From NCBI GenBank assembly GCA_965113315.1, contig OZ220368.1: 64,000 nt of DNA. The stretch is one strand, 5' to 3'. Position 1 is the stretch's first letter. Every line of letters starts with the position of its first letter. The notes below the pieces were generated by a model. It did no database searches. It was given only the letters and a program-made list of their open reading frames with translations, and had not been told where the DNA came from. A program made the translations under genes and the position numbers. This DNA comes from Podarcis vaucheri (Eukaryota). This document shows, one piece after another, positions 18,937 through 64,000 of the stretch.

Positions 18937-19165
18937 CAGTGGTACCTCAGGTTAAGAACTTAATTTGTTCTAGAGGTCCGTTCTTAACCTGAAACTGTTC
19001 TTAACCTGAGGTACCACTTTAGCTAATGGAGCCTCCCGCTGCTGCTGCCGCACCACCACCGCACGATTTTTGTTCTCACCCTGAAGCAAAGTTCTTAACC
19101 CGAGGTACTATTTCTGGGTTAGCAGAGTGTGTAACCTGAAGCGTCTGTAACCCAAGGTACCACTG
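18937..19165. mobile_element. Tigger-like MITE, nested in an L2 3' relic (~18800-19210, - strand)
   Basis: CAGTGGTACCT...AGGTACCACTG termini with TA TSD; same family at 41425, 42967 and 43940. Confidence 0.85.
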
Positions 19166-20151: not shown

Positions 20152-20288
20152 CCAGTTATTCCCAACCTTTGGCCCTCCAGATGTTTTGGACTACAATTCC
20201 CATCATCCCTGACCACTGGTCCTGTTAGCTAGGGATCATGGGAGTTGTAGGCCAAAACATCTGGAAGGTTGCAGACTGGGGATGCCTG
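20152..20288. mobile_element. Palindromic hAT-like MITE (GGACTACAACTCCC family)
   Basis: Inverted arms ccagatgttttggactacaattccc / gggagttgtaggccaaaacatctgg; related copies near 13880-13980, 25235-25372, 39055-39180, 48410-48628 and 51440-51555. Confidence 0.65.
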
Positions 20289-24700: not shown

Positions 24701-25947
24701 TTGGGGGGAGGATGACTATTTAACCAGACATGCCTGCTGTTTGGATCTTAGCCTCTCTGTCTGCTAGAATGCCACCTATGAAATAATTACTCAGAGTTTT
24801 GATTGCAAAATGCCTCCTGAAACTTCCCTGATGATATTAATCATTGTATTTTTAACTTTGCAAAGCTCAAGTGAAAGTTACTGTGTCTTATATTGGCTAA
24901 GCTTGGAACATTTCAAAAGGAGCAGGTTATGCAGTGACCATCCACAAGGAGCAGAAACATGTTTTGTTTTAAAATGAGATGAAAAGCCAATCCATCAAGG
25001 ATGTGAAATAACACCAATTTTGAAGATTGTATTGGACAACAAGAACCCTACAGGAAAGACTAGCTTAAGCCGCATGCCCTTGTGGTTTGACACAAAAATG
25101 GGCCTATGGGTCCCTGGAGTAATGTGTTTTATGTGTACAGAGGGCAGGTTTGGATGGCCATAGCAGAGGACAATGGTAAAGAATCCTGAAACCTAATAGA
25201 AGAAGAAACTGTAATGGATGTTATTGTGTTAAAACAGCCTGTACCAATATGGTGCCCTCCAGGCGATGAAACTACAACTCCCATTAGCCCCAGTGAGTAC
25301 AGCCATGCTGCCCAGAGATGATGGGAGTTGTAGGCCAAAACACTTGGAGAGCACCCTGGTCAACAAAGGCTGAATGCCCCTCGCTGATATAGAGTTATTT
25401 GTGCTGTTGTTTTCAATCTTAATCCCGCTCCCTGATGTAATTTCAGGACTGGACAGGGCCTCTCCATGAGGGTCAAAGCAACAGACATCAGTGGTATGGA
25501 GAACAGCATTTCCTAAGAGTTGATTGTGAAATGATGGCCACTTCACACATTACACACAGGGAAAGACACTCACAGGGCACACTTAAATAGGGAGCTATGG
25601 CCAGTCATAACTACTCCAATCCACACTTTTGGTGTACTGTATGATTGAATTTTATTAGGTATACACTTTTAAAAAGCGATAGAAGGCAGTGAAACCCCCA
25701 TTAGAGGAAGGCAGTTACCGTGGCTGGTGGTGGGAGTTGTCATCCCAACAAAATCTACAGAGGACCAGGTTGGGATTGGCTGCTTTGGGCATTCCAAAAA
25801 TTTTAGGTATAACACGGCTTCCAGAACTGTCCTATTGTTTGCTCACCCCCTCTGTCTTTCTTACCATAGTCTGGTGGATTATCCATGGAAATGGCTCAGC
25901 ATTACATCTTGACACATCTTGAATCACTTGACACATAATGAGGATTC

Positions 25948-26429: not shown

Positions 26430-26535
26430 CACCACACACCTGCTTTGTTTGAGCGTCACCAGCCAGACTGGTTGGGCAGGTCCGATGGTAGAAAGAGAGG
26501 CAGCTGTCCCGCCCTATCACTCAGAAACCGGGAGG
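26430..26535 (+). promoter_or_regulatory. Putative TACSTD2 proximal promoter
   Basis: CACCTG E-box (~26437), GRHL-like AGACTGGTT (~26465) and GC box CCCGCCC (26508-26514), 80-180 nt upstream of the ATG. Confidence 0.35.
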
Positions 26536-26614
26536 CTCTTGTTGTGGATGTGTCTTGTCTTCAGGCTGCTGTGTTGCCCTGTCTCTCCCTAAAGACCTCT
26601 TTTGTTCATCCTCC

Positions 26615-27541
26615 ATGGAGTCTGCTTTTGGGGCTGCCCTGGTGTTGATGCTTGTGGCCACGTCGGCCGCCCAGAACGACTGCTTTTGCTCAACGAATAA
26701 CCTGGCGTCTTGCAGTTCGGAATCCGGCAGCTGCATCTGTACGGCACGCGGTTCGAACCAGAGGCTGGACTGTTCAACGCTGACTCCAAAATGTCTGCTG
26801 CTGAAGGCGGAAATAAAAACCAAAAGAGGCAGAAGTTTTCCCAGGCCCGAGCATGGGTTTGTGGACAACGATGGACTTTATAACCCAGAATGTGATGCCA
26901 TGGGCTTCTTCAAAGCCAGGCAGTGCAATCAGACAGATACTTGTTGGTGTGTGAACAGCGCTGGGGTAAGGAGGACGGACAAGGGGGATCTCAACATGAG
27001 GTGCAACGAGCTGGTCAGAACAAGCTGGATCTACATTGAGATGAAGCACAAAGAGCGAAAAACTTCCTTGTCTGAATCAGAAGTGGCAAACAGCTTCCGA
27101 CAGCTCATTGAAAACCGCTATATGCTCCATCCGAAGTTCATCACAGCTGTTGAGTACAAGGAGCCATTAATCCATATCGACCTAAAGCAGAACATTTCGG
27201 ACAAGTCTTACAGAGATGTTGACATTGCAGATGTAGCTTACTACTTTGAAAAAGACATCCAGGGTAAACCCATTTTCCCACCCGATAATATGTTTGGTCT
27301 CTATGTCAATGACGAACCTCTAGATATTGAAGAAATCCTAGTATACTACGTTGATGACAAACCACCAGAGTTCTCTATGCAGCGCCTGACAGCGGGCATC
27401 ATTGCAGTGGTGGTGGTGGTAGTCCTGGCCATTGTTATTGGGATAACTGTGCTCGTGGTTACCAGGAGGCGGAAGACGGGCAAGTATGAGAAGGTTGAGA
27501 TTAAAGAGATGGGAGAAATGCGAAGAGGACAACATGCATAA
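26615..27541 (+). CDS. TACSTD2: Tumor-associated calcium signal transducer 2 (Trop2), intronless, 308 aa
   Basis: Kozak-like tccATGG; signal peptide, Cys-rich N-domain, thyroglobulin type-1 domain (DNDGLYNPEC...CWCVN), TM helix and KYEKVEIKEMGE tail; single exon located between MYSM1 and OMA1. Confidence 0.96.
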   Translation: MESAFGAALVLMLVATSAAQNDCFCSTNNLASCSSESGSCICTARGSNQRLDCSTLTPKCLLLKAEIKTKRGRSFPRPEHGFVDNDGLYNPECDAMGFFKARQCNQTDTCWCVNSAGVRRTDKGDLNMRCNELVRTSWIYIEMKHKERKTSLSESEVANSFRQLIENRYMLHPKFITAVEYKEPLIHIDLKQNISDKSYRDVDIADVAYYFEKDIQGKPIFPPDNMFGLYVNDEPLDIEEILVYYVDDKPPEFSMQRLTAGIIAVVVVVVLAIVIGITVLVVTRRRKTGKYEKVEIKEMGEMRRGQHA

Positions 27542-38433: not shown

Positions 38434-38619
38434 GTTCTTGGTATGAGCTTTCGTGTGCATGCACACTTCTTCAGATACACAGTATATATATTGTGTATCT
38501 GAAGAAGTGTGCATGCACACGAAAGCTCATACCAAGAACTAACTTAGTTGGTCTTTAAGGTGCTACTGGAAGGAATTTTTTTATTTTGACTATGGCAGAC
38601 CAACACGGCTACCTATCTG
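38434..38619 (+). mobile_element. Penelope-like element remnant with inverted partial terminal repeat
   Basis: CTGAAGAAG..GAAAGCTCATACC..TTAGTTGGTCTTTAAGGTGCTACTGG..CAGACCAACACGGCTAC; 48-bp inverted duplicate; flanking near-duplicate TAGCAGATAATATG/TAGCAAATAATATG. Confidence 0.75.
38495..38532 (+). ncRNA. Minimal type-I hammerhead ribozyme motif
   Basis: GUAU-CUGAAGA-A-GUGUGC/GCACAC-GAAA-GC-UC^-AUAC; identical copy on the - strand at 38441-38478. Confidence 0.6.
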
Positions 38620-39219
38620 TAGCAAATAATATGGTTTAGGATTCCCACCTAATCCAGCTGTTCATTGCTGGTTTTAATTAGTAATGGAAATTTGACTTGA
38701 AATTTAAGTGAGAAATGTCTGTTCTATGAGGGAAAGAAGAATGGCTCTACTTCCGGGAAAGAACACCTGCCTGCTCCTCATTTGGCTTGCCCCGGTGCCC
38801 CTTTTTTGACATTTGGATAGTCAGCCTTAGTTAAAGCCTCACCTATTTCGTTGTGTCATTCTCTCCATGCAATTGTCTCTGGGTTTGAATATGAGGGCCA
38901 GATCTTCCCTCACAGGGAGTTGGCTCCTGATATTGAAGGTAGTACAGTACATGAACTTTCATGAGGGTGTTTTCCATGGGACACAAGTGCATTGTTAATG
39001 AATCTGTCCTGGACAGGATAGTGCCCAAGCTTTTGACTTCTCAGGCTAGATTAACCTGGTGCCCTGTAGATTTGGACTGTAACTCCCATCAGTCCCAGCT
39101 ACCACAGCTGTGCTGGCAGTGTTGCGGATGGGAATTGTAGTCTAGAACTTATGGAAGGCACCAGGTTGGAGGAGGCTGGGCTGGATGGTAAACAAAGCAG
39201 GGGGTTAGCTGCTAGTATA

Positions 39220-41268: not shown

Positions 41269-41424
41269 GTAAACATTAATATTGCTCTGCTACACACTAT
41301 AGCAGTATAGAGTATACTACATTGTTGCAATGTAAATTTAGATGCAAGCTTAATAGGATACTTTGCAAACTTCACATGAGACTGTCTGGCATGCTCATAA
41401 TGTTGGAAAGGAGCCTTGCAAATA

Positions 41425-41652
41425 CAGTGGTACCTCAGGTTAAGTACTTAATTCATTCTGGAGGTCCGTACTTAACCTGAAACTGTTCTTAACCTGAAGC
41501 ACCACTTTAGCTAATGGGGCCTCCTGCTGGAGCCCGATTTTTGTTTTCATCCTGAAGCAAAGTTCTTAACCTGAAGCACTATTTCTGGGTTAGCGGAGTC
41601 TGTAACCTGAAGCGTATGTAACCTGAAGCGTATGTAACCTGAGGTACCACTG
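41425..41652. mobile_element. Tigger-like MITE
   Basis: CAGTGGTACCTCAGGTTA / TAACCTGAGGTACCACTG TIRs, TA TSD. Confidence 0.88.
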
Positions 41653-42966
41653 TAGATGGTGAAAGCTCAGTTTTTGTGAGAATGACTGCTGATTTTGTGT
41701 CTCTGCTCCCCTCCTCCTCTCACCTGTTTTAAAGCCTGGTGAGGTAGCTTGGAAGAACATGTGTAACTTGGATAAAAATGGGTAAAGTACATTTCTATGC
41801 TGTTTCCCAAACTGTTTCCCCAAATATGTGAATATTCTACCTCTATCCTCCAGCAAAGGACGCTAGAATAGCATTGTGGTACTTTCTGGTCCCTCGCCCG
41901 CCCTCCCAGTACTGAGGGATAATGTCTCCTGGCTCTAGGCACTAGGTTGATAGTACAGTACCACTTTTGATTCTTGTAAAGAGGATGGGGCAGGGGCTGT
42001 AGGAAGGAAAGAGTGAGTATTGTCCATTCTCAGCCTGGAACCATGATAAATCGCACCTCTGTTTCTGTGCTTTCCCATGAAAGCAGCCCCTGCTTTGGGG
42101 ATATGTTTTGGTTTTTATTGATTTTCATTTACCTTAGCCAAGTTTTAATTACTTGAAAGGCCAACTGCTTCCTTGATTTGAAATCTGCGAAGCTCTGAAA
42201 CACCTCTGAAGTGGAGTATGCAACTCTGTTCATCACTTTGGTGGGCAGGTGGGAATGAAGCAGAAGAAATAAACATGCTTTAAATATGCTTAGTTTGAAA
42301 TGGCATCAACTTGGTGGCTTAGGTGCAGAGTGTTCTTCCTGTGCTTTTAGTTCTATACTGTCTGAGCAGTGCCTTTTTCTCCTAAATGCCACCAGCAGTT
42401 AGGCACTTTATTATCCTTTAAAAACATTTCCTCTTTATAATAAAATAAAATTTAGAATGTTTTTAACTGTGTTGCCAAGACACACCTTGTTGTGTAATTT
42501 CCACCAAGGAAGTAGTTGCGTCTCTCAAGTTTTTAAGAGTGACTCAGCGCAGTGAGTTTCGTTCCTAGCTTGCAGACCAATCGGTTAACAAAATTTGGAT
42601 CTTGGTAACGCACTTCTAATATTAGGAGCACATCCTCACCTCTAGTCACCTTTTAAAAGGTAATTTGGCTACTAATCTCCAATCTAGATATCATGTGCAC
42701 ATCAGAGGGCTGCTGCAGCACTGTCCCCATGCATGTACTATCCTGCTGAGGAAGCCACACCTTTGCAAACTTCCTGGGAAAGGAGTGGAAGGTTCTCAGA
42801 ATCTGGGGCACTGCATATATAGGCCTGCGTCGCACTTGGATTTATGAGCGGTGGTAAGGGCATGGGTCTGATGCTTCGCCTTGTAAGCTGTTTTTCTGGA
42901 TTAGAGGTTGAGTAATTTGGGCTTAAGAATAGGTCAATCACAAAGCATGCATCTAGTTTTCTAGTA

Positions 42967-43178
42967 CAGTGGTACCTCTGGTTATGAACTTAATTGGTTC
43001 TTAACCTAAGGTACCACTTTAGCTAATGGGGCCTCCCGCTGCCGCCGCGCTGCCAGTGCACGATTTCTCTTCTCATCCTGGGGCAAAGTACTTAACCCGA
43101 GGTACTACTTCCGTGTTAGCGGAGTCTGTAACCTGAAGTGTTTGTAACCCAAGGTGTTTGTAACCCGAGGTACCACTG
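42967..43178. mobile_element. Tigger-like MITE
   Basis: Same TIR family, TA TSD. Confidence 0.85.
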
Positions 43179-43939
43179 TATATATATAGTTCGTGATCCA
43201 GAAAGTTGAGGCTTGCTGTAGTGCAGTATAATTTTTGACTCTGAAGAGCTGACTCCTTTACTTCCCTATGCCACGTAACAAATCGCTTTTGAAAATTATT
43301 CTCGGTTTTGGAAGTCCTCAGGTTTGCCATGTGGCATAGAGGGAGGACTTCTGTTTGAGGAAAAGAAGTATGAAACCCCCCTTGGAGCTGCTTTTACAGT
43401 GCTCTGGATTCTGGCCATAAACTTTACATATTCACTATGCAGGCCAAAACAGCAAATGATGCTCCACTTGTGCTTTTGCAATATGGATGTTCTGTTGCTG
43501 CTCAAGGAACCATCTATTAAATTTAAATTGTATATACAAGTTGGACCCTGTGGAAAACCATCGTGGTATATGTGGTAAATCCCATCGCTTATTAAACCTT
43601 TTCTTTGGTATTAAATGAACACATTTTTCTTACTGTAAATAAGGTGTCTCAGTGTTTTGAAACTTGCTTCTTTTTCTTATTATTCTCCAGAGCAGAATGT
43701 TGTTTTTTAAAATAGAATATAATAGTTAATGGTTTCTCAGCCTTTAAATATGCATTAGATTTTTGTTTTGGCTTTCCTTTTCCATTCTCAAAGGCTTCAT
43801 TGAAGCCAGATTTTAGATCTGTAGAAATTACTTTTTTTAAAAAAAAAAGTTTAGAAGGAGAATACTTTAGATTATTGAAACTGCTGTTTGGTTCCTCAAA
43901 TTTCAATTGAGCAATCTCCCACCTTTTTTTTTTGGTATA

Positions 43940-44181
43940 CTGTGCAACCTCGGATTATGTACCATCCTGCTTACGAACGCTTCGGGTAATGAGCTCCGCT
44001 AAGTCGGAAGTAGGTGCTCCTAGCAGCGAACCTTGCCCCGGGATACGAATGGAAGCCGTGTGCCGGCGGTGTGGCGGCAGCAGGAGGCCCCATTAGCGAA
44101 AGCACGCCTCAGGTTAAGAATGGTTTCTGGTTAAGAACGGACCTCTGGAACAAATTAAGTTAGTAACCGGAGGTACGACTG
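43940..44181. mobile_element. Tigger-like MITE, opposite orientation, more diverged
   Basis: Reverse complement of the same internal motifs (GGAGGCCCCATTAGC, GGTTAAGAACGGACCTC); TA flanks. Confidence 0.75.
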
Positions 44182-44766
44182 TAATATCTTGCCACGTGCC
44201 TGGCATTATATTACCTCACTTTTGCTTCCTCTTCATTTGAAATGGAAGTTCTTTCTGTACAAACATGTGCATACTAGGTAGATACTGCCCCATCTCTCCC
44301 TATTTATTTATTTGTTCTTGAAATCCATCTTCTTTTAAAACTCACCTTCTCAGCCTATGACTTGCCTTAACCTGGATGCCTTAAAAGCTGCCTGATCCAC
44401 CTATGGGTTTAATATGTACAGAAGCAAGACTTTATGTAGATCCCTAGCTTTGTGGGCAGCTGTATGCATAAATGGGTCCGGGGTTCCTGTCCAGCCGTGG
44501 ATATGTGCACATAGCCTTTTAAATCCCAAATATGGTGCTGCCCATTTGTTTGATGAGAGTGATGGTGGTTCCACACTCACTATTTGCCATATCTTCCTCC
44601 TGTTTACTTCCCATTCAGCTTTCCTCCTTCCCTACACCAGCTCTCTCCCCCACCCCTTCTTGTTGTGCTTATACACAGCCCTCAGCTGCCTTTCCTCATC
44701 TGTCAGACTCCTCATAACACGCAGCTAACCAATCTCCTTAGTTTGGGAGGCCCCACACTCTCTAGG

Positions 44767-47301: not shown

Positions 47302-47995
47302 GTAAGTAAAAATCGAACACCAAGAGATGTAATAATTCGGAAAGAAGCTACTGACAGCGCATTCCTGTTGTCCTTGGGAGGACGTCCCAGAGGCTGAAGG
47401 ATTTTGTGCCTCTCCCTCTTGGCGGTGAGGGTGGGGGGGTCATAGCTCAGAGGCAGAGCATCTTCCTTGCTCTTCCAGATTCAATCCCTGGCTTCTGCAG
47501 GGGGGGGGGGGCTGGGAATGTCACCAAATCTGAATCCCTCAGGAGGAGCCTCTGCCAGTCAGTGCAGACAGTATTGGGCTTGACTTGGTACCGCTGTCCT
47601 TCCTCTGCCATTATTGCTTTCACAGTAGAGAGGGCAAAAAGGTGTTGGGGAGAAGAGGAGCTTCTGGGATCCAGCCTCCCCCAGTCCACATACACGGGTC
47701 GAGAGAAAACATGTCCTGAAGTTTGCGTGCTGATTTTCTCTCCTTTTCTGACCAACGTGCAGGGAAGTCTCCCTTCCTCACCTCGCCCCCCAAAAGAAGT
47801 GTGCTGACAAAAAGGAGGAATAAAGAAGAAACACAACTTCTCTTTTTCCCTCCATTCTGTCTCTCCCCCCCCTCCCAATTTTTCTGCTCTGCTGGTGCTG
47901 GCCTGGCCAAGCTGTGGGTTCACCCCCACCCCCACTTTGGATTGCTCTATGAAACAATTTGTTTGCAGTATTATTTTTCCTCTCTTTGCCTGCAG

Positions 47996-48103
47996 AATGG
48001 ACAACTGTTTGTTTTCACTGGTATGCTATCTGCTGTGTCAGATATCAATGAGCTGTCTTTCATTCTGGGACATGAACTTGCTCATGCTGTTCTGGGACAC
48101 GGG
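47996..48103 (+). CDS. OMA1: OMA1 exon with HExxH zinc motif ([12 protein letters not shown])
   Basis: HELAH at 48071-48085. Confidence 0.96.
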
Positions 48104-48508
48104 GTATGTATCCTGTTTTAAAAAGTGACGTTGCCAAAGCCCTCTGAAACTAAACACATGGTCATAGGTGACCAATGTGGACCAATGTGGAGACCACCAT
48201 ATTTGACTGGAACTACCCAGCGATGCTCACAGCCTGCCTCTTAGGGCTAATAAGCTTTGCTCCAAACTCTGCATCTGTGATGTTAATTGAAGTCAGAAGT
48301 TAGGGGTGTGTCGTACAACTGAATAGCTCTTTATAGGCCTTCCTTACCCAGAGTTGGTGCTTTCCAGCATCCAGTACTTCTTCTGCCAGCATTGTGGCTT
48401 CATAAAGTGTTTCTCCAAGTTGGATCTCCAGTTGGACTACAACTCCCATAATCCTTAGCTAGCAGGATGTGATGGGAGTTGTAGTCCAGCAACAGCTGGT
48501 GAACCAAG

Positions 48509-48615
48509 AAGAAGAAGAAGAAGAAGAGTTTGGATTTGATATCCCGCCTTTCACTCCCTTTAAGGAGTCTCAAAGCGGCTAACATTCTCCTTTCCCTTCC
48601 TCCCCCACAACAAAC
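48509..48615 (-). mobile_element. Squam3-like SINE 3' fragment nested in a hAT-like MITE
   Basis: Matches ~848-950; TSD AACCAAG (48502-48508 and 48613-48619). Confidence 0.8.
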
Positions 48616-49752: not shown

Positions 49753-50535
49753 CTTTCTTTTGCTCCGTGCTACAAGGCTCATTAACCAGGAACTGAGAAG
49801 AGAATAAATGGTCCTGCTCTCCCTGCAAAGTTTCTTATTACACTTGAACTTCCTGCCAGTCAGGAATAAAATCAGAGATGTAGGAAAAGGCAGTTCAGTA
49901 ACCTAACCTAAAATGGCTGAGAGAACTGTCAGGATGATCAATGATACTTCACCACCAGGCTTGCTTTATAGTACACAAGTTGCCAAACCCAGTTCTTCGC
50001 TCTCTGTCACATTTGGCAGTTTCTTTCTCTTCACGTTCCAGAAGTGTAAAATGCCTGTGGTAGCTCTTTTCTTTTTAAAAAGGGAGGTGCCAGGAAAACT
50101 TCTGAGGTTGCAGAAACGTGGTGATTTTATTATTGCTGTTTCTTGGTTTCCACAGCTGTCTGGGCTGGGTACAGTGCTTCTCCCTTTAGCAATATTCCAT
50201 ATTATCCTCTCAAGTCAATGTTGTAACTTTGTATTATCACTCTGACAACCGGAAGTCAATAAGTCACATAATTAAATGTGATCTCTGGTGACCCACAAGG
50301 CACTGAGCAAGACCATTTTGAGGTACCTCTTTGAAAAGATTGGCTTCTCAAATTAATATTTTTTTTATTTCATTTGGTAGTGTTCATAAACCACCTTTCG
50401 TTGTGAAAAATAAGGCGGTTTACAAAATAAAACCGCTGCAGTAAAGTAACAATATAACATAGTTAGTGCCTTGGAATAACCATGTGGCCAGGTAGTTTTT
50501 CTACTAGCTGGTGAAAATGTGTTATTGCAAGATTA

Positions 50536-51235
50536 GAATCATAGAATAGAATCATAGAATCATAGAGTTGGAAGAGACCACAAGGGCCATCGAGTCCAAC
50601 CCCCTGCCAAGCAGGAAACAGCATCAGAGCACTCCTGACATATGGTTGTCAAGCCTCTGCTTAAAGACCTCCAAAGTAGGAGACTCCACCACACTCCTTG
50701 GCAGCAAATTCCACTGTCGAACAGCTCTTACTGTCAGGAAGTTCTTCCTAATGTTTAGGTGGAATCTTCTTTCTTGTAGTTTGGATCCATTGCTCCGTGT
50801 CCGCTTCTCTGGAGCAGCAGAAAACAACCTTTCTCCCTCCTCTATATGACATCCTTTTATATATTTGAACATGGCTATCATATCACCCCTTAACCTCCTC
50901 TTCTCCAGGCCTAAACATGCCCAGCTCCCTTAGCCGTTCCTCATAAGGCATTGTTTCCAGGCCTTTGACCATTTTGGTTGCTCTCCTCTGGACACGTTCC
51001 AGTTTGTCAGTGTCCTTCTTGAACTGTGGTGCCCAGAACTGGACACAGTACTCCAGGTGAGGTCTGACCAGAGCAGAATACAGTGGCACTATTACTTCCC
51101 TTGATCTAGATGCTATACTCCTATTGATGCAGCCCAGGATTGCATTGGCTTTTTTAGCTGCCGCGTCACACTGTTGGCTCATGTCAAGTTTGTGGTCAAC
51201 CAAGACTCCTAGATCCTTTTCACATGTACTGCTCT
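50536..51235 (-). mobile_element. CR1 LINE, 5'-truncated, young
   Basis: ORF2 C-terminal peptides ([19 protein letters not shown]; RKNFLTVRAVRQWN) with one frameshift near 50910; (ATTCTATG)n-type tail; TSD CAAGATTA (50528-50535 and 51236-51243). Confidence 0.95.
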
Positions 51236-52565
51236 CAAGATTAATACATGATTAATACAAGGTTTGAAAAACTGCATCCTCAGAGTACTGAATTAAAAAG
51301 ATCCCAATTCCACTATTGTCAGTGACACTCTGGAAGGGGAGTAAGTTTATGAAACCTGTGGTCCATGCAAAATATGAGGTATTTGAAATGCAGTTGGAAA
51401 TATGGTATCAATTCAAATGGACTTTGGTCCATTACAGAACTAGGGCAAGGGCCCCTGTGGCCCTGCAGGTGGTTCCTGACCACTGGGTATGCAGACTGGG
51501 GCTGATGAGAGTTGGAGTCTATCCACATCTGTAGGTCCCATGTGCTCCCCATGCCTGTAGGGTTAAAACGAAACGAAATTTGGCAGTATTGTCAAATATC
51601 AGGCAGAAAAATCCAGTTTGTTTGGTTTTTTTAAAAGGAACAAACGTGGAAACTGAATAAACTCTTATTACAGCTGAGGAGAGTCTTGAGGCTGTAATAA
51701 GGCATGTCCATCTTTCATAGCCACAATTTACTTTCAGTTGGGCTACTGCACAGAAAACCTGCTATCCAAGTTTTTTTGCTGTCATAATTGCAGTGTGAAG
51801 CCTTACAATGTGTGGGTAATTTCCCATGACATTTTGGGAACTGGGCGGCAGGTAGATTGGAGCTGGGCAGGGCTTTCCTTGGGGCGAGACAGTGCCTCTT
51901 CTACAGTCATCCTAAGTCGTTACCCTCCTCCCTCATCACCTCTCTCTCTGACTTCAATCTCTGTGCTCTGCTGTCACCAACAGTTGTTGGTTTACACTGT
52001 ATTATAATTCATGGATATTTGCATTACATTTTGCATTGAAAAGCTTTAATATGAGGGGGAAAGCACTCTGCATATGCTCCGAGGTGCTTTTTTCCTTAAG
52101 ACTTCTGCCATGGATTTAAAGGTGAACACACATATTGCGGTGCCTCAGTGTTTTATGTAACCACCTGTAAAATGGGACCAATGACAGCTAAATGATCTAA
52201 ATGCAATAAAGCACATAGATGTTTCTTTATCTGTATCTGATGTGTCTGCAGCATACCTCACTGCTTTTATTATCAAAACACATCTGGCTGCATGCATTTT
52301 AGTTTCCTTTTTTCACCTGTGGCTAACTCCGGCCTCTTGTCATTATTTGCCAGGCCACGCAAATACTCCCCACTTAGCTGCACCCACTACTTCAGTTTAT
52401 AAAACACTGGAGCACATGCTTATCATTCTGTCTACTGTAGACCAGAGAGAGAGAAAAAAGTGAAGAAGCACCGCTGGCATGCATGGCTTTTATTGGAACC
52501 AAACTCTAGAACGCAGCAGGTCTCAGCCAGACTGCTAATGCAACCGCTGATTTAGCTGCTTCCTA

Positions 52566-52909
52566 GTGGCGCTGTGGGTTAAACCACAGAGCCTAGGACT
52601 TGCCGATCAGAAGGTCGGCGGTTCGAATCCCAGTGACGGGGTGAGCTCCCGTTGCTCAGTCCCTGCTCCTGCCAACCTAGCAGTTTGAAAGCACATCAAA
52701 GTGCGAGTAGATAAATAGGTACCGCTCTGGCGGGAAGGTAAACGCCATTTCCGTGCGCTGCTCTGGTTCGCCAGAAACAGCTTAGTCATGCTGGCCACAT
52801 GACCTGGAAGCTGTACGCCGGCTCCCTTGGCCAATAAAGCGAGATGAGCGCCGCAACCCCAGAGTTGGTCACGACTGGACCTAATGGTCAGGGGTCCCTT
52901 TACCTTTAC
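52566..52909 (+). mobile_element. Sauria SINE (Squam1-type)
   Basis: A box GTGGCGCTGTGG, B box GGTTCGAATCC, (ACCTTT)n tail. Confidence 0.88.
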
Positions 52910-53092
52910 TAAATTCCCCAGAAAAAATGTACATCTACAGCCTCTTCTCTAAGCCCTTTGCAGAAAGAGCAGGAGGGTGAACGCTTCTGCTGAAACTTGT
53001 CTGTTTGTTGTATGTAAGTTAGGAAAATGCTTACTTTGGTTTCAGAAACTGGCAAGAACGAAGTTCTTATGTCTCTTTCCTTTCCCTTCTAG

Positions 53093-53167
53093 CTGCTGTT
53101 CAATAGGCCATATAGCAGGACATTGGAAGCGGAAGCTGACAAAATTGGGCTTTGGTTTGCTGCTAAG
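53093..53167 (+). CDS. OMA1: OMA1 exon ([25 protein letters not shown])
   Basis: PYSR.LE.EAD motif carrying the third zinc ligand. Confidence 0.95.
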
Positions 53168-55726
53168 GTAATAATAGTTTTTGGCAACAGGATAGAAAAA
53201 GTTCCTTTGCTTCATTTTAAGTAGGCAGTGTTTTTCACAAATGGTTTTCTGTGTATAGTTGTAACACCTTTAATAAATGGGCCTTTCCCTTGCCGTCTGC
53301 TGTATTAGGGTTTTAGTCTTGTTTTAAATGTATTTGCTGTTTTTGTGTCTTTAAATGTTTTCGATTGTCTTGTGTGTAAACCGCCATGAGATGGTTGCTT
53401 CGAATGTAATTAATAAAAATGATATTATGAATAATAATTTGGGATTTCAGTATGAGGCTCATCAAAATACAAAAAATCCTTGCCAGTTCATATGGGATAA
53501 CTGTACCGCCACTGCCACCTAGTGTTAGTATTAGTATTAGAATTTATTATTAGAACACACACAAACTAGTTAGCTTGACTGCTGGGAGAGGAACAAAGTT
53601 AGTGGACCACTTATTTTCACAGACTTTTTTCATACAGTGCTGTTCACAAGACCTTTTATTCCTCTGGGTGAAAATCCATCAAGCTTCTTTCTAGGGTTGA
53701 CGATATTGCCAATGCTTATTGGTTTGTTACAATTACTTATATTTGGCCTTTGAGGATACAGAAAAGTAGGAAGCATTTACGCCCAAAGGAGAGAATGATG
53801 CTTCATCATGTACTTAAAGGGTGTCTGGATGAGGGAAAACGGCCTTGCTCATATTTATTTGCTTGTTTGCTTTTTCACCTCACTCTCCTCCATTCTGGAA
53901 ACAAGTGCAGCTTCATATAACAAATTGTTAAACCCCCCCTTCAATGAAATATAAAACATAAATAACAAATTACTCCTTTATAATAGATACCACAGCGCAG
54001 CTGCTTTATTAGCCATAGGCGCTGGCTTCTGAGGGCTGAGACACTTCCACCCCCCATGTGTTTTGTTTTTTGGAGCGGACCAGGGCACCCTCAATGTTCA
54101 GAGGGCTGCATGCACGATGTCAGGATGTCACACAACATCTCCTCAATCGCCTGGAGAAGCTGGTGCCTCTGATAAGGGCTCACATCTCCCCAGCACACAG
54201 TAATATTTATTATCCAAATGCCTGGAGCTTCTTTAACCTGGTGCGTGTGTATCTCTCAGTTCTGCGTCCAAAGCTATGGAGACCTCTAATTTGCCCTGGG
54301 TTTCAGACCATCCCAGCCTAGGAAGCTATTTGAGTACTAAGCTAAAACAAGGGAAAGGGTTAATTAGATCTTTATTGGAAAAGTATAGTTGCTGCGAAAA
54401 AATATTTGAAAAGAAATGTAACTTGAGATGAGAAATTTCAGTCTGTGAGAAAGAGACGCTTTGTAGTTGTAATACAGAACTACTTGTTCGAAAAGGGAGA
54501 AAGAGTGAAAGTGGTGGAGACCTGTGTTGCAGTTATCAACTTGAACTTGTAACAACACCAATTGAAACAGAGGACAGCCTGGTTCACATGTCACAGTGAG
54601 CCATACTGGGACCGGGTAAATGTGCTGGTTATTGGAGAGACCCAGATCTGTGGAATCAGTGCTGCTACAAATGCTTTGATTGTTAACCAAAACTCTTTAA
54701 AAAAACAACAACAACTCCTCTCTCTCTCTGTGCATTAATTCAGAGAAGTATTGGGTTTTAAGCCAAATACATATTGATTGATTTATTTAAAAATAAGCTC
54801 TTCCCTTCTTTCCTTCCGTGGCGTGTTTATTTGTCTCAAGCACTTTATAAGTCTGTTTCCATTTCATCCATTTTGCTACAGCAGCTTCTTCTTTGCCTGT
54901 AAAGGTCAAGAACTTAACCCAGATGGTTTTGCTTCTATTAGCATAATTGGTATCTCCTCCTCTTGCATTGGCATATGTGCAGAAATGCCACCTGTTCCGT
55001 TTCAAGAGTTGTTTGCATTTGCAGGCACTGTGCAGTTTCTCCATGACTCGAGTTCCAGTCTTCAATTTTTTATTTTTATTTTATAAATCAATATAGGTTG
55101 TTGTTGCTTAAAAAAACAATTTCCCAGTGTTAGTTTGCTAATGTTAAGCAGTTTTTCCTTTTACTCTTCTTTAGCATTTAGCATATGCTACAGAACCCAG
55201 TAGTTCCATAATTTTAATTTTAATTTATAACCCAGTACATGCCATTAGCAAGCTCCAGCCTTTCATTTGATATAAATGCTCATTTGTTTTCCTTTTTTCT
55301 CTTTCCCCTGGTTTTCTTCTTTAACCATGGAAGTTAAAACAGTTTCCCCTTGATCATTGATATCATAACATTTATGATACTTTGCCACTTACATTTCCCT
55401 TCTAGAAAATGTATTTTTCTGCTGCCAGCTCTGACTATTATTGTCTCAGGTCTCACCCATGTTGAGTCATTGTTTAGAGTTGCATCTGAACCAGCTCACC
55501 TGTGAACACTGAGCACTTTTTGCTCAGCCCAGAAATTAACAACTTGATTTTATTTCGTTAAGGCTGTTGCTCCCAAGAGTTTCAGAGCATTGAAGACGTA
55601 GAGAAACCTACTTATCTGTGCTTTTTCTCTGCTTTTGATGTGAAGGAAACGGCCAGTGATGTTTACAAGCATCTTAAGATTGCAGTTCAGTATCTTTCTG
55701 AGATATCACCTTCTCTTTCTTTCTAG

Positions 55727-55876
55727 GCTTGTATGGATGTAAGAGCAAGTTCTGTATTCTGGCAGAAAATGGAGCTCGCTGAGACTCTTACAGGGCAACC
55801 AAGAGTGCCAGAATGGTTTTCTACACACCCCTCCCATGAGAATCGAGCTGAGCATTTGGACAGACTTATTCCAGAG
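55727..55876 (+). CDS. OMA1: OMA1 exon ([15 protein letters not shown]...[22 protein letters not shown]); last exon not found in window
   Basis: STHP M48 motif; AG/GT borders; 150 nt. Confidence 0.95.
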
Positions 55877-56609
55877 GTGAGGTGGTTTGGGAGTTTTGGT
55901 GTCTTTAAACCGAGTATCGTTTTTCACATGTCTGTCCCATCCTTCTTTGAGTTGCCAAGGGCAGTGTGTATATATAGGATTGATTTCGCACACTCACACA
56001 CTCCAAATCTAATAGTCATTATGAGTTGCTTTCTTAGCTGCCAATTTTCTAAGACAAAGATACCGTCGAAGTACTTGCTGTATATTGCTTAGATTTACTG
56101 AAATCTATCTTGGTCCCCCCAAGCTTCAGCTTTCTCGCAGGAACAAATGTGCCTCTCTCTTCAGCAACTCCTAACCTGTTCCCGTTTCCTATTTATCATT
56201 TATACATTTGCAAACTGCTTTGTAATCTTTGCCCTCAAATGATCCTGTCATTGTTCGTATTTCAGTCTAGGGCCATACAATAATCCTATGGCAAAGGTGA
56301 GATTTGAAACCAGACCTCTTAGTCCAGGCTAAATGTTACCTAGTATTAGAGCACAAGTTTGTCTGTAAGTAATCTTAATGGAGTGCTTTAATGTGGCCTC
56401 AATCTCAATGCTTTTGGATTTTTAGCAGTGGACGCTAGTCCAGGCGATTATGAACAAGCTGTTCCTCTAAGCTTCTGTCAAATCTGCCATTTCATAGGAT
56501 TTGAGCTCAAGTGCAACTGCTTGTCTCTTGGGCCCTAACTCACAGGCACTAACTAAGAACTGTTTTGCATGCAATGTTAAACCATATTTAAACAGAAACT
56601 AATGTAGAA

Positions 56610-57398
56610 GGGACGCGGGTGGCGCTGTGGGTTAAACCACAGAGTCTAGGACTTGCAGATTAGAAGGTCGGTGGTTCAAATCCCCACGACTGGGTGAGCT
56701 CCCGTTGCTTGGTCCCTGCTCCTGCCAACCTAGCAGTTTGAAAGCACGTCACTGTACATAATGTAACTGGTGTATGTGCACAGACATGCATTTTTTAAAA
56801 AAACTAAATGGCCAATGGTATGTTTTGATCAGCTTCATATGGAGATGGGGTGGTAAAAACAAACTGGTCTGTGAAAATGCCCCATTCCTCCATGGCATGC
56901 TCCTCTAACTTTTATCTTTATATTCCAGTAAGTTATTTTGCTCTCATTGTTGAAAAACAAAAACCTTGCATACCTTATTTCATTGGATAATTTCAATGTT
57001 TTTCTTTTATCGTTGTACAACCAAGGACGATTTTATAACTTTTTTGTACATAGCTGTTACATGTAGAGCAATCTGTCTTTAAGTAGGGGTAAATTACTCT
57101 AAACAAAAATTTGATCTTGGATAGTTTTCCCTTCAAGTAAAGTGTCTTGTTGTTTAAATAAGCTTCTTGGGTTTTTTGTGTTTTTTTTAAGTGCAAGTAG
57201 ATAAATAGGTACCGCTCCGGCGGGAAGTTAAACGGTGTTTCCGTGTGCTATTCTGGTTCACCAGAAGCATCTTAGTCATGCTGGCCACAGGACCCAGAAG
57301 CTGTACGCCGGCTCCCTCGGCCAATAAAGCGAGATGAGCGCCACGACCCAAGAGTCGGCCACGACTGGACCTAATGGTCAGGGGTCCCTTTACCTTTA
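56610..57398 (+). mobile_element. Sauria SINE interrupted by a 437-bp unrelated insert (56752-57188)
   Basis: The two halves are colinear with the 52566 copy and rejoin exactly at GCACGTCA|AAGTGC. Confidence 0.88.
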
Positions 57399-59739
57399 TT
57401 GGTTAATGCAGAGCATCATGACACATGCAACTAATAAAGTGCAAACTTCACCCCTCCTCTATTCCTGCTGTTGTTGCACCGCCATGTAACAACTTGCAAA
57501 ACAACATCAAACCTTGCGTTACGTGAAATACATTTGACAAACACACAAGACGTAACCGGCTGTGCATTCACTTAAACAATACTCTTCTATATATTCTTAT
57601 CACAATATCAAATGTTTATCTTGCACATAAACAACACATAAAGTGCAATAACATAGGCAGAAGTCCCAATAAATCAGTTCATTCACAAAGACCAAATATC
57701 TGCTGGTTTCTGTTCCACATATGTTCATAAAGTCCAAACTGGAGCCTACTACAGTTCCACAGTGTTGACAAGTATTTCCGGAATACTGCCTTGTTTTGCT
57801 CTCATGGGCTTCATCAGTTGTACATATTCTAAGTAATATAAATGAATATAATGTCGTCATTCAACATATTTTAATAAATTAAAATTATATAAACAATTGT
57901 GCTATAGAAGTACATACCATATATGAAGTATCAAGATAATAGAACTTATAACATAGTGGTTTCTGCAGTGAACAACTGTTACAATGTAAGATTATATAGA
58001 CAGGCGCAGCATTGATTTTAGTTACAGGTGACAGCAATCTGCAGCTGTAAGGTTTTCTTCCTTAAGTGACCCCTTTAAAACAACAAATGTAAAACAAACT
58101 TTATACATACACAGGTGTTATACATACAAGCATTAGTAATGACTCATAGAAAGCAACTATAATCAATTTCAGTATACAAACCAGAGGGATGCAAAGAATC
58201 AGGTAGGAAAATAAATCTTGTTTCTTTTTGCGTAAGAATTTTCTTTGCTCGTTCTACAGGACCTAGATATACCCAAATTACGAAAAATGTCATCTCTTCA
58301 TCTGAATGCGACGCTTGAATGAAATGCTGTACTAAAGGAGTTGGGAAAGAGCAAAGCAAATACCTGTCTGCATTAAACTATAGGTTGTTTTTTTAAAAAA
58401 AACATTAGAGGGGGCCTTAATATTTTAGGAGTAATGTTTTCTCTTCACATTCTGGTTCTGATTTCGTGGTACTCTTGGCTTGAGTCCATACCAGTGAATC
58501 TCTGGTGCAGTAATAATACTTATTAGTGCTGCGGTCCCCAGTCTTTTGCAGCAAACATTTCCTGGACCTTGTATGCTATGTCCTGTTTGTTCTGTAATAG
58601 CAACTTTTCTCATCATAAATTGGTTTACTGTTTAGGGATGAGATGAAAACCAATTTATACAGAGCAAGTTATGTACTCCTTTTTATATATTTCTAAATAT
58701 GTTGTTTTGAAAGGCATCAGTTGACATGCTTAGTGTTTTCTTATTTTTTTTAATGAGAACAACTACCAAATCTGAAAATAGAGTGCAAATTGCAAATACA
58801 CATATTAGATGCAGAGTCTGCAAAATAATGGTGATATATAATGAAACAAATTTATACACAAATTGGCCAGTACAGACATAATCTTAGAGGGCAAGAAGAT
58901 AATTTATATTGGTTATCTTCCAGTCTCCTCTTCAGTCAAATATTTCTGTGACAGGAATAGTAAGTGGATCACTAGAAGTGTGACATGAAGGATCTTCTCA
59001 CTCTGTTCACCCTCCTAGCCAGCTGTATCTGGAAAGTTCATTAACCGTTTTTGTTGTCCTTGGATTTAGGAAGAGAGTTGTGGTTTGCATGTTGTTCTCC
59101 TTTAGAAATGGCTTGTATATTCTGTGTTTTCTTCGCTGACAGTTAAACTGGAGGTTGCTCTGCTTTATTTGGAGACATACTTCGTTTTTGTTTTATTCCA
59201 TAATGTTGCGTGTTTACATATAGATTTGCTTTTTTAACCAGTCTTTGTTCCACAAATCATAAGCTGTCTCACAGATGAGAAAACACACCATGACTCCCCA
59301 CCCCCTCCCTGAGCTTGCTTTGTTTTCGAGCTTAATGAATGTCTGGGGTGGGGTGGCTGAACAAACCATGGTTAAGCAAATTTTATGGATTTGGACATAA
59401 TGCCAAACCATAGTTAAAACAAACCATGGTTCTGTATCAACAACAAACCACAGCTTCACTTCATGTTTTGTTGGCAACTCCCATTAGCCTTTGGGCTGGA
59501 TTGAATGTTCAAACCATACGTAGGCCAAACAAACTATGGCTTAGTGTTTGCGCAAAACCGCTCAGTATAGCTTACAATTCTTACAAACTCTTTAGGATGT
59601 CAGAAATTATGATTAGGCATTTTTTATTATTATTTATTAAAATGTGTATACTAGCTTTCATCCAAGGCTAGTTCTCAGGGTGGTTCATAACATGTCTGGT
59701 ATAGTATGCTAAGGGTTGAGTCAGGCATTTGATGCTAAG

Positions 59740-60120
59740 GAGGCTGTCGATTAAGAAGTTCAGATGATCAGTAGAGAAGCTGACTCTGGAACAGAAATGC
59801 AGCCTGCTATGGATTGCGTTGTACTCCATCTGAAGTCCCATCGGGTTCAGGAGCTGGCATAGCTGCTCGATATCCAAGTGGCTGTTGCGGCTGGGAATGC
59901 CTTTGCCCAGCTTCAGCTGGTGCGCAACTTGCACCTCTTCCCTGAAGTACCAACACCTCCCACAAGAACTGGCCCAACAGTTGCCATTGATATTAGGCAG
60001 ATGCCTTATTTTTTAGCATGAGCTTCAAACATTTTTGTTTAGGCAAGTCTACCCTAGTTTTTAATTATTTGTGTTTAACTGTAAACTGCTTAGGGGTTTT
60101 GCTACAATCAAGTGGTATGT
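59740..60120 (+). mobile_element. L2 LINE ORF2 relic
   Basis: QVAVAAGNAFAQLQLVRNL resembles the L2 RT C-terminal segment; L2-like 3' tail follows. Confidence 0.55.
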
Positions 60121-60428
60121 CGCATAAGAAGAAGAAGAAGCTGTGATTGTCACCAAAAGTCCTACCCCGCATTCTGTTGCCAAGGGAGTACACTTGTCAA
60201 TGACACAAAACCAGGGCTTTTTCAGTGACAGTACCCTGGTTGTGGGACTCTCTCTTTGCAGTTCAGCTGGTCTTGCCTTTATGGCTTTTAAGCAAGCAGT
60301 CCGGACCTTTTTATTCTGCCCAGCTTTTCTTGGTTCTTAAGTGGTTGTTAATTTTTCTCTCTTGATGCTGTTTCGTATTTTTGTAGATTTGTTTTTTAAT
60401 GCTGGGGGTGGAGTGAGTCTGGGGGAAA

Positions 60429-60430
<2 letters not shown>

Positions 60431-60464
<34 letters not shown>
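60431..60464. repeat. (AG)n microsatellite
   Basis: Direct reading. Confidence 0.95.
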
Positions 60465-60473
<9 letters not shown>

Positions 60474-62879
60474 GTAGGGCCACAGTTGCTGCATATGCAC
60501 ATCCCAGTAAACCATGGTTAATGGCTTGCTGTGAGCGTGTCAATTGCTTTCACTTCATTCTTTCTCTCTAGCAAATGGGAGCAGCAAACCATAGCCCTCT
60601 GCTTACTTTTATACTTGAACCAAGGATCATGGTTTGTTGTTGTGCTCCTCACTTTATGACCAATAGTGGTCCCTTGTTTGTAAACGCAGCCATGCTGCAA
60701 CTTAACTTAAGCATCCCCTGGCTTGTGACCACAAGGCATGTGATACCTTCATCATCTTAAATACTGTGCCTTCTTTCTACAAATCTACTGATTGAACTAT
60801 ACAGCATGAGAAGAAGAAATACAGAATTTCTTAGAGATGACCTGAAGTATTTCTCCCCCCACTCCCATATATGAGAAGGGGAAATCCCAACTGTTTTCAA
60901 GCCTGTGGTATTGGAGCCTTCCAGGATTAAAAGCAAGTGCTGACTCTTGTTGAAAAGCTGTGTGATCCATTCTTCCTGCAAGGCTGACTGTTTTCAAAGC
61001 ACTGACACATTTATGTAGAGAAAAGCCATTCCTGGCTTACCTTGAGCTGTGCAGCAGGAAGTGGAAAGGGATTTTAAATTGGGCATGGGAAGGGAGGAAC
61101 ATTGGTTTTCAGGGTGGTTGGGGAGATATTTTAAAATGTAAGGTTAGGTTTCAGAGATTTAGGATGAGAAGGAAGTCAGATGGGAAATTTAACACATGGA
61201 TAGTCAAAAGGTAGAAAATGCAGAGAACCAATAATTTTAAATGCTCTTTTTGGGATGACATTAGGTTGCTGACAGACCCATGAGTAAAAAGCTCCCCGGT
61301 TAAGCAGCTGACATTAATGGCGTTAGGGAGGGGTTCCTATGAAGACGTTCATTGAATGCTCATTGTATTAATTTCAAATTAATAGTATATTAATAGCATA
61401 TATCACATAACTTCACTGCAGCTTTCAAGAAAACATCTGTGTGTTGGGTGCACAGCCATTTCCTCCTTAGAGTTGATAATGCAAAATGTGCCATATAAAA
61501 ATAAATTAATTGAAAATCCAGAGGAATGCATGCATAACTGTCTGTGCTGCTACACGTGTGTACATGAGAGAGATAGACAGGGAATAGCAGAGATATATTT
61601 CAGTTTTGTATCTCTCAGTGGTAAGATGAAGATTTTCCAAACTGTGGATTATAGCTACTTAAATTATGATGAGTGGAATGTTGAAAGCAGCTATAGTTGA
61701 TACTGAAGCCTAGGAAATACTCTGTTGTGAGCTTAAAAACACAAACAAAGCATATTTTTATTTACTGTTCTCTTTCATTTGATATCACTTTGTGAATTCC
61801 ATTCTAAACTAAGTGTTCAGTGTTTGGGGAAAGATTTTCAAAAGCAAAAAGTGGCATTTACATCTCATTGAATATTGCTATGTCGCGCTTTGTCGCTGCC
61901 TGGGAAAAGCTGTCCCTTGGGTTTCATTCACATGCCGGCCTTTTAAAAGGTAATTGTACTTCCTGGCTACCAAATCCCTAAGTAGTTGCGGTGACTTTCC
62001 CCCTACATCCATAATTAATGCAATAGTGGCATCTGCATTGGGGGTCATAAGAATATGTCACAGAACACAATATACTGATTCTGTGGGGCTGCTGCCACAA
62101 GATACTAGACAGTTGAACTTTCCATAGGCATGATTTACATGGTAGGACTTGCATCTGTCATTTTAGAAGTTCTCTCAAATGCCACAGCTCTTTCTGCTTA
62201 GAAGCTCAGGTTGTGTATGCATGTGTTTGGGGACTTACCAGTGGGAAAGAAATCGTTGCCTGGTCCCTAACAAAAATGCTACTCTACCTGGTATTTGCTA
62301 ACCCTTGTCTCAGGCTAGTTCTAGGCATTTCAGGCAAATCACATTGCTGTGTCCCTTTGCATGCCCATCCAGATTAAAGGTCAAGAAGGCGCTGTGCTGA
62401 ACCATATTAGGGTTTTGTTACAGAGGCAGGGATAAAGACACACACAGCTTCAGCCCAGTCATATCTTTCCCCTTAAATCCTCTGCAACACAAGGAATACT
62501 GTGTGCTTGGTCAAGCAGTATAGCCTGATCATGTTTACAAGTTACATGTTGATAAAATAATTTTGCCAGTGGAAACACAGCTGAGGCCTCTCTATCTTGT
62601 GACCAGGGACCACTTGCTCTGCTTTGAATTGTGCCCTTCGAGGATTGACTCTCTTTTTTCTGGCATGCCTCCTTGAACATGCCAATACAGGCAGAAATTC
62701 AACTAGAGCAGCTTTTCCTAGCAGGCCTTTTGTCTGGCTGCTTTCATGCAAGGGCTCCCAGCGACAGCAGCCCCAGGTGGGCAGTCTGGTTTTCCAAACC
62801 TCTTCCATAGGTATTCCCCAAATGTGACAAAATCCTGCTCAGCAGCTTATCTGGCATTTAGCGTAATGGTTAGAGCATA

Positions 62880-63300
62880 TAGTCAGGGCTTGTTCCAAAG
62901 CAGTGGTAATTCCATCCTAGGGTAGCAAGGATAACTTTCTGGAGCACCCACCCACTTGCTAAAGGCCATCACTGCTGAGGCCTACGCATCCCCCTTGGAT
63001 GTGGAGATATGAGCTCAGGTGGCTGCCCTGTAGATTTATTCCAGGGGGGTGTTCTTGTGGATTGCAGCTGTGGCTGCCACCCCCCCCCCAACTGAGTGGG
63101 CAGGGATCTGCAAGTGTGAGGTGTTAGCTTTGGCTCTGGGCCCTGACCATGCAGACATTCGGCAGGACTATGTCTTGATCTCTGTGGAAACTGGTGTTAA
63201 CCTTGAGTAGGACATTGGGGTCTGGTTCCAGGAGCACTTGGTTGGGATGAAAGGTTCATAGCTCCTCCTTGGCTGAATTGATACGTGCCCTAATGAGATC
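62880..63300 (-). mobile_element. DIRS-type tyrosine-recombinase retrotransposon relic
   Basis: Minus-strand fragments PFIP, AHS, AATAA and IYRAAT* fall in the order expected for the DIRS YR C-terminus (HSTR...ICRAATW). Confidence 0.5.
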
Positions 63301-64000
63301 GCCTGTGTCATTTAAAACTTTAGAATTTAAAATGACTCTCAGTTTAGCATTATGTGCAAACTAGGGATTTTAGATTTAAATAAAGAGCTATCAGTTAAGG
63401 CAGCTTCACACCCCCTGGTTTGAAGATGACTTGTTTAGAAACAGGCCTGAATACGCTGCAAGTCAGTGTCTGATTTCTTGGTAGGAAACGTGTGAATAAT
63501 TTTGGACAACATGGAAGAATAAAAGAAATGCAGATTGTACCTTTAGAGGATAGATTTTCCTCAAGACCACAAAAGGGGAGGGAAGTGTTAAATACCCCCT
63601 CTGTATTGGTGTGATCCCTAAAATAATCACCCCCCCCCCAAAATGCTATCTGCCTATTTAAAAACCTGCATGTTAAACTCAAAGGCACTTCTTTATTTAG
63701 GGGCCAGTGGTGTAAATAGTCTGTCCCTGTTTGACAGGAGTAGGACATAAAGGTAATCTTAAAACAAAACAACACAGTATAATTGTCCAGTGTTCTGAAG
63801 CACAAGTATTGGCTATAAAGTATGCTCCAGGTTTTAGATAATTTATGGAGAAGCCGCTTGCTCTGTACAAACATCACTCATTCTCAGTCCAGATTTCACG
63901 TTGCTTGTGACACAGACAAACTCAAAGGTAAATATTTTACTAGCTGGTATAATTGAATTGGCCTTGAAACTGCACGGGGCTAGAAAACCTAACATTTTCA

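What the first reader, a model, noticed from the sequence alone, without database searches (positions are those of the whole stretch)
56752..57188. 437-bp 3'UTR-like sequence patched into a Sauria SINE with no TSD, poly(A) or deletion
Seen: the intact SINE copy reads GCACATC-AAA-GTGC; here it is split as GCACGTCA|insert|AAGTGC with no base gained or lost. The insert looks like the terminal part of an mRNA 3'UTR: TGTACATA Pumilio-type sites at 56753 and ~57045, U-rich tracts, AATAAG near its end, then a GU/U-rich stretch. It has no TE hallmarks. From memory only, unverified, it resembles the conserved distal 3'UTR of an NFI-family gene such as NFIB. Inference: a templated insertion during double-strand-break repair, or a template switch during SINE retrotransposition. 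It sits sense to OMA1 in the intron after the last exon found here and could supply a cryptic 3' end.
Basis: partly seen in the sequence, partly recalled or inferred. Interest (0 to 1): 0.7.

Follow-up and report, generated by a model that had tools for sequence, protein, structure and literature searches.

The report
Conserved mRNA end patched into SINE
In a wall lizard, a 437-base copy of a sequence shared with mammals, probably the tail end of another gene's messenger RNA, sits cleanly inside a short mobile element in an intron; it is a tidy example of a known kind of insertion, and its source gene was not identified.

Summary
A Squam1/Sauria-type SINE in the last intron of OMA1 of a Podarcis-type lizard is split at 56751/57189 by 437 bp, with no base gained or lost, no target-site duplication and no poly(A) tail. 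New evidence: 57063-57150 matches Rfam mir-684, a family named after a mouse miRNA (77.6 bits, E 1.2e-17; 73 of 86 positions identical). It folds no better than shuffles. So the insert is not a miRNA but most likely a copy of old conserved host sequence inside a young SINE. Two Pumilio-type sites and an AATAAG hexamer 26 nt before the end fit an mRNA 3' terminus. Best reading: a reverse-transcribed mRNA end joined into a break after the SINE had integrated, a class-2-like templated insertion or tailless truncated retrocopy. The donor gene is unidentified: NFIB was not confirmed, and my own guesses (HNRNPA3, BZW1) were weakened. A template switch during SINE retrotransposition is disfavoured, and a cryptic OMA1 3' end has no support. 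New member of a known kind; modest interest.

The parts
55727..55876 (+). Last OMA1 coding exon in the window (residues about 397-446 of 507), followed by a GT donor; the final coding exon lies beyond 64000
   Evidence: tblastn of named lacertid OMA1 proteins, 100% identical over this exon; the C-terminal 60 residues are not found in the window; donor site
56600..56608 (+). Left copy of a probable target-site duplication of the whole SINE (TAATGTAGA)
   Evidence: 8 of 9 identical to 57404-57412; similar match in 8 of 3000 random flank pairs with a position limit chosen after seeing the match, 146 of 3000 without it
56610..56751 (+). 5' part of a Squam1/Sauria-type SINE with A-box-like (56620) and B-box-like (56673) motifs
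56752..57188 (+). The insert: 437 bp, U-rich, probably the terminal part of another gene's 3' UTR
56753..56760 (+). Pumilio-type site TGTACATA
57045..57052 (+). Second Pumilio-type site TGTACATA
   Evidence: two sites in 4 of 2000 shuffles
57063..57150 (+). Stretch homologous to Rfam RF00876 (mir-684), conserved between mammals and this lizard; not a credible miRNA hairpin here
   Evidence: 77.6 bits, E 1.2e-17, below the gathering score of 100; 73 of 86 model positions identical by hand count; fold z -1.2, 21 of 200 shuffles as good
57157..57162 (+). Poly(A)-signal-like hexamer AATAAG, ending 26 nt before the insert's end
57189..57398 (+). 3' part of the same SINE, ending in the ACCTTT-type tail; carries its own AATAAA at 57323
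   Evidence: 189 of 210 identical to the intact copy; hexamer
57404..57412 (+). Right copy of the probable SINE target-site duplication (TAATGCAGA)
52566..52908 (+). Intact, slightly 5'-shortened copy of the same SINE, used as stand-in for the pre-insertion state

Best explanation
Step 1 (shown in part): a Squam1 SINE integrated normally into the last intron of OMA1, leaving a probable 9-bp target duplication. Step 2 (shown): 437 bp of foreign host sequence later entered it within the AAA of GCACGTC-AAA-GTGC with no loss or gain. Step 3 (partly shown): that sequence is old and conserved with mammals, so it was copied from a donor locus elsewhere; its anatomy says it is the last stretch of an mRNA 3' UTR (inferred). 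Step 4 (inferred): the template was the donor's mature mRNA. A DNA end at a break paired with the first one or two As of the poly(A) tail, a reverse transcriptase (LINE-encoded, or a repair polymerase) copied 437 nt, and end joining closed the other side. That gives a 5'-truncated retrocopy with neither tail nor target duplication. The product is most likely a neutral intronic passenger.
For: Exact split, and both halves are equally diverged from the intact copy, 12 of 133 and 21 of 210. Conservation with a mammalian family at E 1.2e-17 inside a SINE whose two copies here differ by about 10%. The insert ends 26 nt after a poly(A)-signal-like hexamer and is followed by AA; class 1 insertions are polyadenylated 10-30 nt after the signal (PMC5110952). 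Experimental break patches were 73-414 bp, RNA-derived and without target duplication (PMC5110952). Mouse mir-684-1 and -2 are a paralogous pair with no ortholog mark for human or rat (PMC2632650), which fits lineage-specific copies of one conserved parent. Lepidosaur genomes do make retrocopies, 90.6% species-specific (bioRxiv 10.64898/2026.06.26.734816).
Against: The donor was not found, so neither the mRNA end nor the A microhomology is shown. There is no splice junction or retained tail to prove an RNA template. Class 2 insertions are described as lacking a poly(A) signal and often carrying microdeletions or added bases; this one has a signal-like hexamer and perfectly clean ends. The hexamer is non-canonical. 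The figure of 32 human RF00876 members comes from an era when this model had a very low cutoff (13.6 bits) and many false hits (3,212 in shuffled DNA), so it is weak evidence for a multicopy parent.
Confidence: 0.55

Rival explanations
1. DNA-templated patch: a broken end in the SINE invaded the donor locus, copied 437 bp of genomic DNA and rejoined, with no RNA step.
For: No tail and no target duplication; template switching and break-induced repair are left open as sources of such insertions in PMC5110952.
Against: A random genomic segment would rarely stop 26 nt after a poly(A)-signal-like hexamer. This is inference; the donor's real cleavage site is unknown.
Confidence: 0.18
2. Ordinary LINE target-primed retrotransposition of an mRNA with a blunt or nearly blunt cut, by a lizard LINE (L1, CR1, L2 or Bov-B); tail and duplication were never made or have been lost.
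For: The bottom strand at the site reads CTTT/GA, a loose fit to TTTT/A (consensus). CR1 or Tx1 content tracks retrocopy numbers outside mammals.
Against: No duplication of 5 bp or more and no 10-40 A tail, both defining for class 1; only two As follow the insert.
Confidence: 0.17
3. Template switch during SINE retrotransposition: the partner LINE's reverse transcriptase left the SINE RNA, copied the mRNA end and returned.
For: Same orientation as the SINE; one apparent target duplication around the whole unit. Sauria SINE is partnered with Bov-B (PMC3747384 table).
Against: It needs two switches with return to the exact base. The insert has 11 runs of four or more T and the SINE halves none, so a chimera could not be one Pol III transcript.
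Confidence: 0.04
4. Assembly chimera or mammalian contamination.
For: Only one assembly was seen; no reads were available.
Against: Base-exact split of one SINE with continuous flanks; 13 differences and a 2-nt insertion against the Rfam consensus argue against mouse or human DNA (inference).
Confidence: 0.03
5. An unannotated mobile element or ancient conserved repeat rather than a 3' UTR.
For: No repeat library could be searched; RF00876 is listed with 32 human members.
Against: No terminal repeats, no coding capacity, single copy in the window, mRNA-end motifs on one strand.
Confidence: 0.03

Closest known systems
Class 2 templated sequence insertions (Onozawa and Aplan, PMC5110952)
   Same: A few hundred bp from a distant locus, no target duplication, no poly(A) tract, probable RNA template patched into a break.
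   Different: Described in human cells and genomes. Class 2 lacks a poly(A) signal and often shows microdeletions or added bases; here a signal-like hexamer sits 26 nt from the end and nothing is lost. Polymorphism was not tested.
Class 1 templated insertions and 5'-truncated processed pseudogenes made by L1
   Same: Ends shortly after a poly(A)-signal-like hexamer; only the 3' part of a presumed mRNA.
   Different: No duplication of 5 bp or more, no A tail, only a loose TTTT/A site.
Endonuclease-independent LINE insertion (Morrish 2002, as summarised in PMC5110952)
   Same: Reverse-transcribed RNA at a pre-existing break, lacking duplication and tail.
   Different: The cargo is host sequence, not LINE sequence; no deletion at the site.
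Rfam RF00876 mir-684
   Same: 73 of 86 positions identical, whole model covered.
   Different: Below the gathering score, several pairs broken, hairpin no better than shuffles. It marks homology, not a miRNA gene.
Tailless retropseudogenes (seen only as a search listing, PMC5322556; features recalled)
   Same: Retrocopy without an A tail.
   Different: By recall these have target duplications and end inside the RNA; this one has no duplication.

Membership tests
Class 2 templated sequence insertion | No target-site duplication | tested here: met
   0 bases gained against the intact SINE copy
Class 2 templated sequence insertion | No poly(A) tract | tested here: met
   The insert ends in T8 followed by the SINE's AA
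Class 2 templated sequence insertion | No poly(A) signal near the end | tested here: inconclusive
   No AATAAA or ATTAAA, but AATAAG 26 nt before the end
Class 2 templated sequence insertion | End-joining marks: microdeletion, microhomology or added bases | tested here: inconclusive
   No deletion; microhomology needs the donor sequence
Class 2 templated sequence insertion | Intact distant donor locus | not testable with these tools
   No vertebrate genome collection; no copy in the window; conservation with mammals implies a donor
Class 1 templated insertion / L1 processed pseudogene | Target duplication of at least 5 bp | tested here: not met
Class 1 templated insertion / L1 processed pseudogene | Tail of 10-40 A | tested here: not met
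Class 1 templated insertion / L1 processed pseudogene | TTTT/A target site | tested here: inconclusive
   The bottom strand reads CTTT/GA
mir-684 miRNA family (RF00876) | Score at or above the gathering cutoff of 100 bits | tested here: not met
   77.6 bits
mir-684 miRNA family (RF00876) | Stable precursor hairpin | tested here: not met
   z -1.2; 21 of 200 shuffles fold as well
NFIB 3' UTR copy | Alignment to the terminal NFIB 3' UTR | not testable with these tools
   Two published NFIB fragments did not match by eye; by recall neither is terminal
Squam1/Sauria SINE (host element) | About 350 nt, tRNA-type A and B boxes, repeated in lacertid genomes | tested here: met
   142 + 210 nt, box-like motifs, second copy in the window; 351 bp and high lacertid copy numbers
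Squam1/Sauria SINE (host element) | Alignment to the published consensus | not testable with these tools
   The supplement holding the consensus could not be read

The most novel reading that the evidence does not exclude
A reptile germ line repaired a clean break with the mature 3' end of a host mRNA, primed on the first As of its tail. That same conserved mRNA end has been captured independently in mouse (the two mir-684 loci, which would then be retrocopies rather than miRNA genes). In its new place the imported Pumilio sites and poly(A) signal act as an intronic 3' end that yields a shortened OMA1 isoform in lizards carrying it.
Probability: 0.07. Interest if true: 0.65.

Novelty: new member of a known kind. 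Interest (0 to 1): 0.3.

Why it matters
The SINE supplies the pre-insertion sequence, so the junctions can be read to the base. Once the donor is found, this one locus can tell RNA-templated from DNA-templated patching in a reptile germ line; the cases I read about are from human cells. It may serve as a presence/absence marker among Podarcis genomes. It also suggests that Rfam mir-684 is a conserved 3' UTR end copied to new places rather than a miRNA family (inference). A regulatory effect on OMA1 would raise the interest, but nothing here shows one.

Tried and rejected
Donor identification failed. Paper searches linking mir-684 to a host gene gave no link; passages read name no parent. One insert motif occurred in 0 papers and another in 1, a paper with miR-684 in its abstract, seen as a listing only. 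Supplement searches found neither motif: first motif only; both. HNRNPA3 was my first recalled guess (17 human retrocopies). Its 3 rows in the CLASH table are all coding, and its 2 distinct 3'UTR sites shown do not align to the insert by eye. One of them lies, by a recalled coordinate conversion, about 240 nt from the annotated end, so the distal end is weakened as donor; 2 further rows in that file were not viewed. BZW1 was my second recalled guess: its 1 site, at what I recall as the gene's end, does not match. NFIA and RBMS1 had 0 rows. A 42-residue frame of the insert found no homologue among proteins of 23-74 residues and no Pfam family above cutoff. No match in plasmids or phages. miRNA reading rejected. 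OMA1 intron read-through: the lacertid hits cover only the exon, 42% of the query, and a 71-codon open frame occurs at 199 of 5000 random positions. Four papers were not held.

Full report
Setting. The intronless ORF at 26492-27541 is 98% identical to Podarcis muralis TACSTD2 and 89% to Zootoca, and the exon at 55727-55876 is 100% identical to P. muralis and P. lilfordi OMA1. The window is therefore from a Podarcis-type wall lizard. The C-terminal 60 residues of OMA1 are not in the window, so the finding lies in OMA1's last coding intron, about 880 nt after the donor site, in sense orientation.

Observation. The two SINE halves, 56619-56751 and 57189-57398, match adjacent parts of an intact copy at 52566-52908 without gaps (121 of 133 and 189 of 210). 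The 437 bp between them are thus a clean insertion with nothing gained or lost. Two Pumilio-type sites are more than chance gives (4 of 2000 shuffles; 2 of 292 window tiles). The insert has no other copy in the window.

Host element. It is about 350 nt with A- and B-box-like motifs. A 9-bp near-repeat flanks the whole element (8 of 9). Such a match arose in 8 of 3000 random flank pairs under a position limit set after seeing it, and in 146 of 3000 without that limit, so it is a probable, not certain, target duplication. The SINE halves have no run of four T while the insert has 11. The halves are equally diverged from the intact copy. Together these say that the SINE came first and the insert later.

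What the insert is. The new result is the Rfam hit. Of 2 matches with E up to 1 in 50000-64000, one is strong: mir-684 (RF00876) at 57063-57150, 77.6 bits, E 1.2e-17, whole model, 73 of 86 positions identical by my hand count. It is below the gathering score, breaks several pairs, and folds no better than shuffles (z -1.2), so I read it as sequence homology and not as a miRNA. An older version of this model was prone to false hits (3,212 in shuffled DNA, at a 13.6-bit cutoff), but this score and identity are far above that. A sequence 85% identical between mammals and a lizard cannot have been conserved in place inside a SINE whose copies differ by 10%; it was copied from a conserved donor (inference). 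U-rich strand bias, two Pumilio-type sites and a hexamer 26 nt before the end point to the terminus of a 3' UTR (inference). Mouse mir-684-1 and -2 are listed as a paralogous pair with no human or rat ortholog mark (PMC2632650), and Rfam once listed 32 human members (PMC2946929; probably inflated). Both fit a parent mRNA end that is copied repeatedly, but no paper I reached says so.

Donor. Not identified. No vertebrate genome could be searched. NFIB is neither confirmed nor excluded. My recalled candidates HNRNPA3 and BZW1 were each weakened by a published 3'UTR fragment that does not match by eye; the positions of those fragments relative to the gene ends rest on recalled coordinates.

Mechanism. 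By the definitions in PMC5110952, class 1 insertions need a duplication of at least 5 bp and a 10-40 A tail, and both are absent. Class 2 insertions lack both and are taken to be RNA patches at breaks; experimental ones were 73-414 bp. This insert fits class 2 except for its signal-like hexamer and its perfectly clean ends. The simplest account of an end 26 nt after the hexamer followed by AA is priming on the first As of the poly(A) tail (0.55). Rivals are copying from donor DNA (0.18), LINE insertion with a blunt cut (0.17), a double template switch (0.04), an artefact (0.03) and an unknown repeat (0.03). Retrocopies are not rare in lepidosaurs and are mostly species-specific.

Function. There is no support for a cryptic OMA1 end. 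AATAAG is non-canonical, the intron part in the window already has 8 AATAAA and 5 ATTAAA on the sense strand, one of them inside the SINE, and 4 of 4 lacertid OMA1 proteins examined have the normal C-terminus. Protein databases would miss a minor isoform, so it is not excluded.

Novelty. A new member of a known kind. One search for lacertid SINEs with retrocopies (25 of 925 papers listed) showed no report of this locus; that is a thin basis for absence.

Papers seen. PMC5110952: parts 1-3 of 4, i.e. all the main text. PMC2946929: passages and section 4. PMC2632650: passage and section 8; supplement unreadable. PMC10058329: part 1 of 6 and passages. Passages only: PMC4124155 (plus supplement search), PMC10486083 (plus supplement search), PMC10670947, PMC10702118, PMC3747384 and bioRxiv 10.64898/2026.06.26.734816 (supplements closed). 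Term searches with no hit: PMC10387578, and PMC8967306 (first 300,000 characters only). Supplement rows only: PMC6771402 (no hits; some files cut), PMC3650559 (file cut), PMC3266933 (one file cut, one not searched). Listing only: PMC4278254, PMC5322556. The unreadable supplement of PMC10670947 holds alignments of orthologous Squam1 loci in Podarcis and may contain the empty allele of this site.

Verdict. A real, cleanly readable insertion of conserved host sequence, most likely an mRNA end. Interest 0.3.

Noticed in passing
window 38434-38539: Near-perfect 106-bp palindrome (98% self-complementary) just downstream of the GC-rich region at the 5' end of OMA1; possibly a small foldback element.
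   Followed up: partly
window 848-950 and 48513-48615: Two 98% identical copies, on opposite strands, of a 103-bp element ending in a (TTC)n tail: a young retroelement 3' end, family not identified.
   Followed up: partly
window 26492-27541: Intronless TACSTD2 between a JAB-domain gene (MYSM1 by recall; domain) and OMA1; by recall an ancient EPCAM retrogene.
   Followed up: yes
window 50550-51251, - strand: Two open frames that look like the C-terminal end of a CR1 LINE ORF2 (recalled resemblance; no Pfam family above cutoff).
   Followed up: partly
window 18931-19158, 41419-41657, 42965-43183, 43936-44183: Four copies of a roughly 200-250 bp repeat, 70-85% identical.
   Followed up: no
window 20162-20268, 25271-25352, 39071-39169, 48432-48507: Family of about 100-bp internally palindromic repeats, MITE-like.
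   Followed up: no
window 55877-56092: The reading frame stays open for 71 codons past the OMA1 donor site; the background rate is 199 of 5000 and no lacertid protein hit uses it.
   Followed up: yes
window 47900-48106: Lacertid OMA1 isoforms differ around this exon: the Lacerta agilis X2 protein lacks it and the Zootoca X3 protein lacks the preceding one.
   Followed up: no
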